This document shows positions 34,115 to 46,484 of a stretch of 64,000 nucleotides of DNA, in pieces. The position numbers and the translations under genes were made by a program. Source of the DNA: Eledone cirrhosa (lineage: Eukaryota); contig OZ024747.1 of the NCBI GenBank assembly GCA_964016885.1, forward strand, positions 31,930,001 to 31,994,000. The letters run 5' to 3'. Every line of letters starts with the position of its first letter. Within the stretch, counting starts at the first letter, position 1. Below the pieces are notes generated by a model that saw nothing but the letters and a program-made list of their open reading frames with translations, was not told the origin of the DNA and did not search any database.

Positions 34115-34527
34115 TTTTTATTATTTTTTTCCCCTATTTCCTTTTCACCGGTTTTTTTTCAGCCTCACTTTCATATTTACTAAATTTTATTTTCAAATCC
34201 ATATTTAATAAAAATATCATGTTTTTTATTCATTCTGATGACTGAAGACAGACACAACATCTACCCAGCGAATTTTCAACCGTCAAGGTTGTTTTCCATG
34301 GTTATGTCACTATTTATAAAACAAATTTTGTATTTTATCTGATGAAAGCGCACCAAGATTGGCTTGGTTGCCCTTGAAATATATATAATAAAATAATTAT
34401 GGTTTTATAAATATAGTTTCCATTTATTAATATATTGAATATTTAATCCAGTTATCTATTGAGTGCTCTATATCAGTTATAAACTTTTAAGTTTGTTGGA
34501 ATCCCAACAAATTAAATATAACTTCTA
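34115..34527 (+). mobile_element. PLE-like terminal fragment; inverted related piece at 33685-33909
   Basis: Contains the 34331 hammerhead. The 3' part is homologous to 45700-45926. 34125-34193 is an inverted copy of 33842-33909. Ends in (TA)n. Confidence 0.75.
34331..34395 (+). ncRNA. Type I hammerhead ribozyme
   Basis: Stem I TATTTTAT/ATAAAATA; core CTGATGA; stem II AAGCGCACCAAG/CTTGGTTGCCCTT; GAAA; stem III from ATATATAT; predicted AUA cleavage after 34387. Confidence 0.8.
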
Positions 34528-35240
34528 TATATATATATATATATATATATATATATATATATATATTTATATATATATGATCAAGACATTACAATCTTGA
34601 CCAAAGACACTGACTTCTCTAGCTATTCTAAGTACCACTACAACACATTATACTCCTTTTCCTAAGTAGTTACATACACTCTTTCTTGTCTCACACTTCT
34701 CTTCACCTCACAATACACTTACTGCATCTCAAACCGAAACACATACTAACTACAAGCTCCCAATCTTTCACCACCATAACAACAACTCTCTAGAAATCCC
34801 TCCATGCTCAGTTTTTTCTTCTTTTTTTGCAGACATTCACATATAGATATTCAAGCTGAATATAAACGGTTTTGATCGGAGCCATTTCAGAGGGCCCCAC
34901 AAAGGTCATTTGTATGGCACTCCTTCATAAAGAATAAGTTTCTTTAGTCAAACAGCCAAAACTGTTTTATATAGATAGCATAGATTATTGAATTGATTAA
35001 GCCCTGGGAAATTATATAACTCAAACTTCTTTTATTGATGGTCATTAAAGTTGACACTAGCAGAATTCAAATTGCACTCACACATAGAATTTATTTGGTA
35101 TTACAGCCCTTAGTATCGTCTATGTAAACAACACTAAATATTATTCAGAAGAAAATATTAAGTAATAATTAATGATATAGCGACCTTATATATATATATA
35201 TATATATATATATATATATATATATATATATATATATATA

Positions 35241-35431
35241 TAACAAAGGAAATGTGGTAAGGAACCAGATGGACCATAACGCACCAGAGTACTCAATACT
35301 TAGGGTAGTAGAGTGGGAAATAGGAAAAAGTATGACTCCGACGGCAGAGCTCAAGCCGTTTCGACGGCTATTTCCAGAAATAGCCATCGAAACGGCTTGA
35401 GCTCTACCGTCGGGGTCATACTTTTTCCTAT
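35241..35431. mobile_element. Palindromic PLE-like mini-element in (TA)n (hammerhead truncated in stem II)
   Basis: 55-bp arms at 35320-35374 and 35377-35431 containing TCGAAACGGCTTGAGCTC. Partial copies at 9423-9467, 9803-9853, 25268-25320 and 38027-38145. Confidence 0.7.
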
Positions 35432-36154
35432 ATATATATATATATATAGCTAAGTGTATTTGGTTTAGAATAGGCACCGTGTCTCTTTGATAGTTGTAAC
35501 AAACATCTAAAATGGTTGGTCTCAAGATGGGTGTACGGCTGTAAGATAATGTTTCAAGATTCTAGGCCACCATGAAAAGGATAACATAAATATGATGATA
35601 TATATCATCATCATCATCATCTAATGTGTTATGTTCCATATGCACATACACTCACAAACACACATATACATGAATGCATCAAACTTAGTTTTCAGTATGT
35701 TAGGTGCTTATGAAAATGATTATAAACATGTACATAGAGAGATAACTTGCTGTGTACATATTCAGAGTAGTACAATATTAAAGGAAACCAACAGATAATG
35801 AAAGAACTTACACAATATTTATTTTCTTTCTTCTGTTCACTTACTGATTTTAGATATTAGGCTGCTACCATGCTGGTATACCACCTTCGATGTATATATG
35901 TTAGATAGATACACAGTGTGTGGGTATGTATTATATATATATATATATATATATATACATACACACACACACATACATATATATATATATATATCCTTTT
36001 TCTATAGTAACACTTAACAAGATTGTTTACCATACAAATATATAGATAGAGAGAGAGAGAGGGGGAGGGAGAGAGAGAGGGGGAGGGAGAGAGAGGGAAA
36101 GAGGGAGATAGAGAGAGAGAGAAAGAGAGAGAGAGAAAGAGAGAGAGAGAGAGA

Positions 36155-36680
36155 TGTAGCTGAATCCTTGGCAGAATTCCAGGCATAGAAACAAAATATG
36201 GATTTGGAAGGCTTTAAAGTGAGTTTAGCTAAGACTAAAATGCTAGTAACTAAGTAAATAGGCAAAACACTGACCCTACTAGGTAAATGGCTGTCCTCTG
36301 TATGCAGAAAAGGAGTTAGTAGGAATTCCATGTTGTGCACTAAATGTAAAATATATACAAGATTTAGTGGCATCTCAAGCAGGCTAACAAAGAATGTAGA
36401 TTTCAAATAAGACAGGAGCAGTAAGTAGCATGAACATACATGAAAGAAGCTATATCAAATGCTCTGATGCATCGTTAGAAATAGTTGGCAGTCACTGCTA
36501 CCAGGGTGACCCAAATTAGTAATGGAATTGGTTGGGTAGGTGTTTGGAAAGTGCAGTAGCCAGGGTGAAAACAGGGTAAACAATTTCCGAGAGCTACAAT
36601 CAGGTCCATAAAGAAAAATTTTGCAAAGAGGTACAAACCACTTTGAGGCCTGCACTACAGATGGCTTACCTACACAGGAT
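36155..36680 (+). mobile_element. Degenerate RTE-clade LINE fragment
   Basis: Translates to GFKVSLAKTKMLV...GKWLSSVCRKGVSRNSMLCTKCK...ARVKTG..FREL...FEAC, the post-RT region also seen in ORF 48673..48960. Confidence 0.75.
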
Positions 36681-37595
36681 GACCACTTCTCATTCTGCAC
36701 TACAGATGGCTTACCTACACAGGATGACCACTTCTCATTCTGTACTACAGATGGCTTACCTACACAGGATGACCACTTCTCATTCTGCACTACAGATGGC
36801 TTACCTACACAGGATGACCACTTCTCATTCTGCACTACAGATGGCTTACCTACACAGGATGACCACTTCTCATTCTGTACTACAGATGGCTTACCTACAC
36901 AGGATGACCACTTCTCATTCTGCACTACAGATGGCTTACCTACACAGGATGACCACTTCTCATTCTGCACTACAGATGGCTTACCTACACAGGATGACCA
37001 CTTCTCATTCTGTACTACAGATGGCTTACCTACACAGGATGACCACTTCTCATTCTGCACTACAGATGGCTTACCTACACAGAATGACCACTTCTCATTC
37101 TGCACTACAGATGGCTTACCTACACAAGATGACCACTTCTCATTCTGTACTACAGATGGCTTACCTACACAGGATGACCACTTCTCATTCTGCACTACAG
37201 ATGGCTTACCTACACAGGATGACCACTTCTCATTCTGCACTACAGATGGCTTACCTACACAGGATGACCACTTCTCATTCTGCACTACAGATGGCTTACC
37301 TACACAGGATGACCACTTCTCATTCTGCACTACAGATGGCTTACCTACACAGGATGACCACTTCTCATTCTGTACTACAGATGGCTTACCTACACAGGAT
37401 GACCACTTCTCATTCTGCACTACAGATGGCTTACCTACACAGGATGACCACTTCTCATTCTGCACTACAGATGGCTTACCTACACAGGATGACCACTTCT
37501 CATTCTGCACTACAGATGGCTTACCTATACAGGATGACCACTTCTCATTCTGCACTACAGATGGCTTACCTATACAGGATGACCACTTCTCATTC
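36651..37595. repeat. 45-bp minisatellite, 21 copies
   Basis: TGCACTACAGATGGCTTACCTACACAGGATGACCACTTCTCATTC x21, nearly invariant. Confidence 0.99.
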
Positions 37596-45241: not shown

Positions 45242-45463
45242 CATCATCATCATCATCATCATTTTACGTCCGCTTTTCCCTGCTTGCAAGGGTGGGACGG
45301 GTCTTATTCAGCACAGCATCTCTCCACTTGTCACGGTCCTTCGTCATCTCCACCGTGAGCTTCAGCGATCTGAGGTCTGTTCTCACCACCTTCGCCCATG
45401 TTTTTCGTGGTCTACCTCTACCACGTCTTCCTTCAACTGGCATTTCCTGGCACTTCTTCACCC
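45242..45463 (-). mobile_element. RTE-clade LINE 3' fragment (young)
   Basis: ORF 45264..45461 KKCQEMPVEGRRGRGRPRKTWAKVVRTDL...WRDAV, with a (TGA)n tail. Confidence 0.9.
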
Positions 45464-45484
45464 ATATATATATATATATACATA

Positions 45485-45926
45485 TACGATATTAAACAAA
45501 TGGAAACTATATTTATAAAACCATATTTATTTCGTTATATATATTTCTGGGATATCATATTAAAAATATGGTATGCCTTCCTCAGACAAAATACAATACA
45601 TAAGCTGTTTTATAAATAATTTTGACATACCTTATAATAATGCAACTTCCATTTAAAAAGTTGATTTTAAATGGAAGTTGCATTATTATAAGGTATGTCA
45701 AAATTATTTATAAAACAGCTTATGTATTGTATTTTGTCTGAGGAAGGCATACCATATTTTTAATATGATATCCCAGAAATATATATAACAAAATAAATAT
45801 GGTTTTATAAATATAGTTTCCATTTGTTTAATATCGTAAACCTACTCCAGAAACTGTTGAGTGCTTTTATATCAGTTATAAAATATTTACTCGTTGTAAC
45901 CCAACAATTTTAAATAAAACTTTTGC
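45485..45926. mobile_element. Fold-back PLE-like element: 174-bp-arm palindrome (45485-45838) plus 3' tail
   Basis: Arms 45485-45658 and 45665-45838 with a 6-nt loop; I see one mismatch. The tail is homologous to 34440-34527. Flanked by TA tracts. Confidence 0.9.
45730..45795 (+). ncRNA. Type I hammerhead ribozyme (mirror copy on minus strand at 45528-45593)
   Basis: Stem I TATTTTGT/ACAAAATA; CTGAGGA; stem II GGCATACCATATT/AATATGATATCCC; GAAA; TATATAT; AUA site. Confidence 0.75.
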
Positions 45927-46076
45927 ATATATACATATATATATATATATATATATATACATATATATATATATATATATATATATATATATATATATAT
46001 ATATATACATATATATATATATATATATATATATATACATATATATATATATATATATATATATATATATATATAT

Positions 46077-46484
46077 TTAAAGGTTAAACAAGGTTCAATG
46101 AATAAATCAAAGAATGAGTTTTACAATAGATTGGAAGCACTCAACAGTTTTGTTTTTCCGGAGTTATTAATATTAATTCAAAATATTAACAAAACTAGAC
46201 ATTCGTGTGATCAAGTATATTTTATTATACATATTTCAGAGGTACTGAGCTATCTTCAACAGTACATCCTCATCAGATAAAATAAGATGATGCATGACAT
46301 ATGATGCAGTCATGATAGTATTGACTGAATCTTAACCATCTACTATGTCAGGGTATGTCATGCATCATCTTATTTTATCTGATGAGGAGTACTGTTGAAG
46401 ATAGCTCAGTACCTCTGAAATATGTATAATAAAATATACTTGATCACACGAATGTATATTTTTGTTAATATTTTGAATTAATAT
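46077..46484. mobile_element. Fold-back PLE-like element: ~132-bp-arm palindrome (46170-46484) plus minus-strand tail
   Basis: Arms 46170-46301 and 46354-46484. The tail shares AAACTGTTGAGTGCTT with 45851-45866. Flanked by TA tracts. Confidence 0.88.
46371..46436 (+). ncRNA. Type I hammerhead ribozyme (mirror copy on minus strand ~46218-46284)
   Basis: Stem I TATTTTAT/ATAAAATA; CTGATGA; stem II GGAGTACTG/CAGTACCTCT; GAAA; TATGTAT; AUA site. Confidence 0.78.

What the first reader, a model, noticed from the sequence alone, without database searches (positions are those of the whole stretch)
34331..46436. Three hammerheads of one architecture show compensatory covariation
The copies at 34331, 45730 and 46371 share the layout stem I(8 bp)-CTGANGA-long stem II-GAAA-TAT(A/G)TAT-A-stem I'. 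Stem I is TATTTTAT/ATAAAATA in two copies and TATTTTGT/ACAAAATA in the third, a paired A-T to G-C change. The three stem II sequences are unrelated yet each base-pairs, and all are 30-31 nt long. This points to selection on RNA structure. The stem III/cleavage segment is itself a TA repeat, like the genomic target tract. Self-cleavage and (TA)n targeting could therefore be mechanistically linked (inference).
Basis: partly seen in the sequence, partly recalled or inferred. Interest (0 to 1): 0.75.

Follow-up and report, generated by a model that had tools for sequence, protein, structure and literature searches.

The report
Hydra retrotransposon hammerheads, dimer-paired stem III
The three motifs are predicted self-cutting hammerhead RNAs at the tail ends of three related Penelope-type jumping genes of a known group (about 70,000 such motifs in this genome); their paired changes are real and point to two ribozymes likely pairing up to cut, while the TA-like segment does not set the TA insertion target.

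Summary
The three type I hammerhead motifs are real, at the stated coordinates; two more lie on the minus strand as inverted arms. Each is the 3' end of a different family of Hydra-clade Penelope-like retrotransposons (linked ORFs found for all three; one intact, 740 aa). One pattern finds 69,520 such motifs in the genome (control 0).

Covariation holds. The stem I pair is A-U in 49,367 copies, G·U 17,802, G-C 2,166, A·C 185. The stem IIs are homologous, not unrelated, and span 26-36 nt. The stem III 8-mer covaries as a self-complementary duplex, even between adjacent bases, which only a dimer can pair. Counts are copies, not independent events.

The TA link fails: 20,357 copies carry AUGCGCAU there and still end in (TA)n (37 of 40 sampled), and element ends lie about 40-55 or 130-140 nt past the cut. 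No pile-up of breakpoints at the cut (243 against 201 at a control site). Cleavage is untested.

Hammerheads, dimer action and (TA)n targeting of this clade are published. The scan noted these elements before on other DNA of this genome. New members of a known kind.

The parts
34261..34525 (+). Family A: 5'-truncated 3' end (pLTR) of a Hydra-clade Penelope-like element, ending at (TA)n 34526-34578
   Evidence: 96.8% to L184, which carries a broken ORF C-terminus about 1.3 kb upstream of its hammerhead; 2,740 first-look candidates
34331..34395 (+). Type I hammerhead motif, family A; predicted cut after 34387
45487..45667 (-). Family B inverted arm (short end, about 48 nt past the cut), abutting (TA)n
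   Evidence: (I2); 100% to L031
45528..45593 (-). Type I hammerhead motif, family B, inverted arm; has the family's usual stem I (G-C plus U·G)
45665..45926 (+). Family B direct arm (long end, about 138 nt past the cut), ending at (TA)n 45927-46076
   Evidence: 99% to both pLTRs of the full-length element L031
45730..45795 (+). Type I hammerhead motif, family B; predicted cut after 45787; stem II closes with A·A
45844..45862 (+). Small conserved hairpin (ACTC...GAGT) just past the short-end position; a twin lies just past the long end in tandem units
   Evidence: RNAalifold gave no consensus fold for the tail
46077..46300 (-). Family C long arm, ending at the (TA)n tract shared with family B
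   Evidence: 91% to L189, which has an ORF C-terminus about 2.0 kb upstream of its hammerhead
46218..46284 (-). Type I hammerhead motif, family C, long arm
46322..46480 (+). Family C short (inverted) arm, ending at (TA)n from 46481
   Evidence: (I5)
46371..46436 (+). Type I hammerhead motif, family C; predicted cut after 46428; lacks the conserved C of stem II
33683..33910 (-). Family D arm: a (TA)n-ending element whose hammerhead (about 33779-33843, core C3 changed to A in this copy) has a non-TA stem III; internal control against the TA link
   Evidence: no ORF was sought for this family

Best explanation
The three motifs are type I hammerhead folds in the 3' terminal repeats of three related Hydra-clade Penelope-like retrotransposon families, kept by selection on RNA pairing, and they likely cut only when two ribozymes pair through the self-complementary 8-mer of stem III. 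Shown: each lies on the sense strand 1.0-2.0 kb downstream of an RT-endonuclease ORF in longer copies; the window copies are 5'-truncated ends, two of them fold-back pairs, in (TA)n; stems I, II and the 8-mer vary through G·U intermediates and avoid A·C. Inferred: a tandem transcript brings two hammerheads together and is cut to unit length; since copies nearly always run across the cut site, the template is uncut or re-ligated (circular) RNA; insertion into (TA)n is set by the protein and by priming sites about 40-55 and 130-140 nt past the cut, not by stem III.
For: Full-length L031: 1,093-nt direct repeats around an intact 740-aa ORF with RWR, DKT, YRDD, CxCX5C, CxxC and CxH, matching the Hydra description. 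Families A and C tied to homologous ORF ends. Stem I pair: A-U 49,367, G·U 17,802, G-C 2,166, A·C 185, against 1,676 A·C expected if independent; G-C rows sit among G·U rows in two places on both trees. 30-row alignment: 96.5% of 570 cells paired, 9 of 19 pairs with two-sided change, slid controls 31-65%. 8-mer centre pair in 99 sampled copies: C-G 41, U·G 29, U-A 28, G·G 1, C·A 0; pair 3-6: A-U 58, G-C 38, A·C 3; C·A is 516 of 69,520 genome-wide. Adjacent bases cannot pair within one hairpin, and the monomer stem III has pairing probability 0.005 or less. 94 of 99 copies have (TA)n within 250 nt, 52 at the short and 39 at the long distance.
Against: No cleavage or expression data. No excess of breakpoints at the cut (243 against 201; denominators not measured). 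Copy counts are inherited: independent events are few (about two for G-C in stem I, one for the 3-6 pair, one to a few for the centre pair), and two of five shuffle measures were not significant (39/500 and 460/500). The youngest family closes stem II with A·A, and the usual G10.1-C11.1 pair is absent from 99 of 99 copies, so activity may be low. A-U-rich 8-mer duplexes are weak (-2 to -3 kcal/mol; -10.5 for the GC form). No tree with published Hydra proteins was built, and Pfam gave no hit.
Confidence: 0.8

Rival explanations
1. One reading: the TA-repeat stem III pairs with or mimics the genomic (TA)n tract, coupling self-cleavage to target choice.
For: 55 of 99 sampled copies have AUAUAUAU or AUAUGUAU; all three window copies sit in (TA)n.
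Against: AUGCGCAU family: 20,357 copies, 37 of 40 sampled end at (TA)n at the same two distances, and 2 of the other 3 read into a tandem unit. Family D (ACCACUGGU) ends at (TA)n about 103 nt past its cut. Published Hydra families target (TA)n with non-TA stem IIIs. 29 of 30 tail-selected family B copies run across the cut.
Confidence: 0.04
2. The hammerheads cut as monomers, with a 2-bp stem III and tetraloop helped by tertiary contacts or the element's protein; the palindrome is incidental.
For: Two outer pairs of the 8-mer are invariant; invertebrate retrozyme hammerheads with 2-bp stem III cleave well alone (PMC7229834, abstract passage and section 15).
Against: It does not explain the centre-pair pattern (U-A, U·G, C-G allowed, C·A 0.7%); monomer stem III is predicted unformed.
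Confidence: 0.12
3. The fold is kept for binding (for instance by the reverse transcriptase) or for RNA-RNA pairing, and cleavage is rare or absent in vivo.
For: No breakpoint excess at the cut; A·A, A·C and U·U closures of stem II in multi-copy subfamilies; low in vitro activity of PLE hammerheads (PMC4209133).
Against: The catalytic core and the UA at the cut are invariant in 30 of 30 aligned rows (the rows were found with a core pattern, so this is partly circular); exact re-ligation would leave no scar either.
Confidence: 0.15
4. Shared descent alone: the apparent covariation is a few chance substitutions multiplied by transposition.
For: All rows are related; few independent events; R-scape could not be run.
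Against: The G·U against A·C asymmetry recurs at separate pairs: stem I pair 2 (17,802 against 185), stem I pair 3 (U·G in 12 of 25 subfamily groups, C·A in 0), the 8-mer centre, and six stem II pairs with two-sided change. CpG decay in DNA would give both forms.
Confidence: 0.05

Closest known systems
Hydra clade of C-terminal EN+ Penelope-like elements, including Hydra-1_Obim (Craig et al. 2021, PMC8557442; read: abstract, passages, section 11, supplement part 2 with Files S1 and S2)
   Same: Single RT-EN ORF with DKT, CxCX5C, CxxC and CxH, no CCHH; hammerhead near the 3' end; (TA)n insertion; tandem and inverted truncated copies; palindromic stem III.
   Different: RWR for RWK; unit of 3.7 kb (published ones generally under 3 kb); 8-nt stem III and 26-36-nt stem II unlike the listed Hydra hammerheads; about 70,000 motifs, where the supplement notes 4 copies for Hydra-1_Obim's end.
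PLE hammerheads acting as dimers (Cervera and de la Pena 2014, PMC4209133; read: parts 1-2 of 4. Lunse et al. 2016 seen only as a reference title and through the review PMC6765202, passages)
   Same: Type I, long stem II, weak palindromic stem III, families 'full of covariations', pairs on opposite strands, proposed dimer cleavage and circular intermediate.
   Different: No G10.1-C11.1 pair; 8-bp A-U-rich stem I; conserved C·Y mismatch in stem II; two-sided change at adjacent centre bases of the palindrome.
Repeat-type hammerheads with palindromic stem III (Perreault et al. 2011, PMC3088659; read: passages and Figure S8 legend only)
   Same: Palindromic stem/loop III across many ribozymes taken as evidence of dimer pairing.
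   Different: Here tied to defined retrotransposon families with genome-wide counts.
Non-LTR retrozymes (PMC7229834, passages and section 15; bioRxiv 10.64898/2026.07.22.740005, part 1 of 5)
   Same: Type I hammerheads in very large numbers (126,247 in axolotl), dimer-dependent cleavage in amphibians.
   Different: These are ends of ORF-bearing elements, not short tandem repeats without a gene.

Membership tests
Type I hammerhead ribozyme | Core CUGANGA, GAAA and NUH in order | tested here: met
Type I hammerhead ribozyme | Stems I and II pair and covary | tested here: met
Type I hammerhead ribozyme | Stable stem III in the monomer | tested here: not met
   pairing probability 0.005 or less; 8 bp possible as a dimer, as in known dimer-type hammerheads
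Type I hammerhead ribozyme | G10.1-C11.1 closing pair of stem II | tested here: not met
   A-U 79, G·U 12, A·C 6, A·A 2 of 99; a preferred feature, and non-canonical closures are also in File S2
Type I hammerhead ribozyme | Self-cleavage after NUH | not testable with these tools
   no assay; indirect breakpoint test showed no excess
Penelope-like element | pLTR direct repeats around an RT plus C-terminal GIY-YIG-type ORF; inverted truncated copies | tested here: met
   L031, L032; domains read from motifs, Pfam gave no hit; 311 homologues at up to 43% identity
Hydra clade | DKT motif, CxCX5C linker, CxxC and CxH, no CCHH, no GxKF/Y | tested here: met
   DKT 119, CxCX5C 599, CxxC 697, CxH 724, no GxKF/Y; CCHH absence by inspection
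Hydra clade | RWK motif | tested here: inconclusive
   RWR at 36
Hydra clade | (TA)n insertion and 3' hammerhead | tested here: met
   94 of 99
Hydra clade | Generally under 3 kb | tested here: not met
   3,724 bp between hammerheads in L031; stated as a tendency in the paper
Hydra clade | Groups with reference Hydra proteins in an RT tree | not tested
   reference proteins not fetched; tree holds only this genome's copies
Non-LTR retrozyme | Short tandem repeats with a hammerhead in each unit and no ORF | tested here: not met
   all three families link to ORFs
Naiad clade | N-terminal endonuclease, no canonical hammerhead | tested here: not met
   endonuclease motifs are C-terminal

The most novel reading that the evidence does not exclude
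This radiation of about 70,000 hammerheads records a natural mutagenesis of an intermolecular helix: compensatory swaps between adjacent bases of stem III show that Hydra elements must pair two ribozymes to cut, and because copies run across the cut and need a hairpin lying beyond their own 3' end, they are copied from cut-and-religated circular RNA. The young family with an intact ORF (L031) would make the long-proposed circular intermediate of Penelope elements directly testable.
Probability: 0.3. Interest if true: 0.6.

Novelty: new member of a known kind. Interest (0 to 1): 0.27.

Why it matters
The role of hammerheads in endonuclease-bearing Penelope elements is still open (PMC8557442, discussion passage). 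These families give clean comparative support for the dimer model, rule out a ribozyme-sequence basis for (TA)n targeting, and supply a very young family with an intact ORF for testing. The element class, the ribozyme and the target are all published, so the surprise is modest.

Tried and rejected
Rfam: no hit on the three motifs at E<=1; only a separate hammerhead at 62813-62857. Pfam: 0 families for the ORF. Sequencing runs: no RNA holder listed; no evidence either way. RNAalifold on 23 tails: no consensus structure. Cleavage footprint: 243 AUGCGCAU-family copies broken at the cut window against 201 at a window 13-17 nt downstream; many of the 243 are 3-nt slips or fold-back junctions; no excess claimed. 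In held loci 6 of 220 post-cut motifs lacked the normal upstream segment; one, L226, joins at the cut within 1 nt, which chance can give. The GIY-YIG ORF in L002/L033 and the LINE-like RT at 49-54 kb of the window were not tied to these motifs. Lunse et al. 2016 was not held. R-scape is not available. Rows dropped: 1 of the first 100 matches was lost in parsing (99 used); loci picked from the A·C list were left out of alignment A1 but are in the flank tree; rows under 110 residues were left out of the protein tree. Literature searches; only PMC8557442 held hammerhead, octopus and Penelope together. Only part 2 of 59 of its supplement was read, and bioRxiv supplements are closed, so these families may be described where I could not see.
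Full report
Observation. A structure scan of both strands found the three motifs at 34331-34395, 45730-45795 and 46371-46436, with the stems, core and AUA cut sites as stated, and two more on the minus strand at 45528-45593 and 46218-46284. These are the inverted arms of copies 2 and 3 (I2 and I5). The bare core pattern occurs 19 times in the window against 2.61 expected. All three elements end at (TA)n tracts.

What they belong to. The window lies in a 3.0-Gb animal genome; an octopod host is my inference from the nearest named homologue (Argonauta, 38%) and from the published Hydra-1_Obim. 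Copy 2's family (B) is very young: the 40 best full-length hits are 99-100% identical. Locus L031 holds a complete unit: 1,093-nt direct repeats, each with the hammerhead, around an intact 740-aa ORF on the same strand. The ORF has RWR, DKT, YRDD, CxCX5C, CxxC and CxH, the marks of the Hydra clade of Penelope-like elements (PMC8557442 section 11). Copy 1's family (A) is tied to a broken homologous ORF end in L184 (53-61% identity) and copy 3's family (C) to ones in L189 and L159 (49-62%). A fourth family (G) with the same stem I has a near-complete ORF in L140 (47%). The protein tree puts A, B, C and G in one supported group against three other copies used as outgroups, with the order inside it unresolved.

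Scale. One pattern for this hammerhead type matches 69,520 places, and the reversed control 0. Freeing the 8-mer raises this only to 70,590, with the same first 100 rows, so that sample is not biased by the constraint; it does come from the first 10 Mb of one contig.

G-C rows appear in two places on both trees, one of them as sister to a G·U row with strong support, which fits A-U to G·U to G-C. The neighbouring pair is U·G in most of family B (40 copies with ACG against 5 with ACA for the modal stem II), so the window copy's clean single change is partly an accident, likely CpG decay.

Stem II. The three are homologous: 3 bp, a C·Y mismatch (97 of 99), then a helix, with intermediates between families. 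Lengths run 26-36 nt. On 30 rows, 96.5% of 570 cells pair and 9 of 19 pairs change on both sides; slid controls pair 31-65%; three of five shuffle measures had 0 of 500 reaching the observed value, two did not (39 and 460 of 500). The rows are related, so these are not probabilities. The closing pair is never G-C in 99 copies, and is A·A in family B.

Stem III. The 8-mer is AUGCGCAU 37, AUAUAUAU 28, AUAUGUAU 27, others 7, in 99 copies. Read against itself, the centre pair is C-G 41, U·G 29, U-A 28, G·G 1 and C·A 0, and pair 3-6 is A-U 58, G-C 38, A·C 3; C·A at the centre is 516 copies genome-wide, 0.7%. The centre bases are adjacent, so they can pair only with a second hammerhead. The monomer stem III is predicted unformed. 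This is the dimer model of PMC4209133 and PMC3088659 (Figure S8 legend). Independent origins are few, and cleavage was not tested.

The TA link. The AUGCGCAU family has 20,357 copies; 37 of 40 sampled end at (TA)n, and two of the other three read into a tandem unit. Family D in this window has ACCACUGGU and ends at (TA)n about 103 nt past its cut. Published Hydra families nearly all prefer (TA)n and have non-TA stem IIIs. Ends fall at two distances from the cut: 52 of 99 within 60 nt and 39 of 99 at 120-155 nt. In family B, 16 of 18 inverted arms stop at the same base, 48 nt past the cut. So the 8-mer does not set the target; the paper proposes the Zn-finger-like linker for that.

Does the cut leave a trace? 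Of 30 family B copies chosen by their tail alone (one is the window's own), 29 run across the cut and one joins at it. In family G, 243 copies break in the cut window against 201 in a control window. There is no excess. The template is therefore uncut RNA or exactly re-ligated RNA (inference); these data cannot tell which.

Twin hairpin. A small hairpin follows the short end in A, B, C and G. Earlier notes of this scan proposed a twin past the long end that marks where copying starts. I checked it: in tandem junctions of B (L017) and G (L145) a twin lies about 10 nt past the long end, with an A-U to G-C change; in L140 it is imperfect. Two families only; the function is their inference, which I reuse.

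Verdict. Real, under selection, and explained: new families of a published clade, with a published ribozyme and target. The added value is count-level support for dimer pairing and a clear rejection of the TA link. The scan had found this system before on other DNA of this genome.

Noticed in passing
window 33683-33910 (-) and 34104-34262 (+): Family D fold-back element with a 9-nt stem III like that of Hydra-1_Obim; its plus-strand hammerhead is cut off where family A begins. 2,203 first-look candidates.
   Followed up: partly
window 62813-62857 (+): Canonical-looking type I hammerhead (Rfam RF00163, 31.7 bits, below the 34-bit cut-off) just after a TA tract, cut site GUC.
   Followed up: no
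window 32791-32813 and 43443-43478 (+): Two further CUGAUGA...GAAA motifs with near-identical short stem II starts.
   Followed up: no
window 35243-35431: GC-rich 55-nt inverted repeat between (TA)n tracts, with one longer arm; looks like another truncated fold-back element end.
   Followed up: no
window 49150-54110 (-): Broken LINE-like reverse transcriptase and endonuclease frames with direct repeats 4.5 kb apart.
   Followed up: no
window 38149-38307, 42763-42953, 46830-46988, 54499-54954: Several copies of a short interspersed repeat; one also interrupts the ORF in L184.
   Followed up: no
window 14384-23170, 36650-37595, 39096-41744: Long tandem arrays (13-nt-based unit, 45-nt unit, 21-25-nt TA-rich unit).
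   Followed up: no
L226:1440-1510: Family B copy with about 90 nt missing up to the predicted cut site, within 1 nt; a possible trimmed-and-ligated RNA, or chance.
   Followed up: partly
L032:1779-8667: Near-full-length family B element as a 3.1-kb inverted pair at 99.5% identity.
   Followed up: partly
family B and sisters (e.g. L001, L067, L170): Multi-copy subfamilies close stem II with A·A, A·C or U·U, yet family B is the youngest seen.
   Followed up: partly
L185, L187, L029, L033: Other, more distant Penelope-like ORFs lie nested in the same TA tracts.
   Followed up: partly
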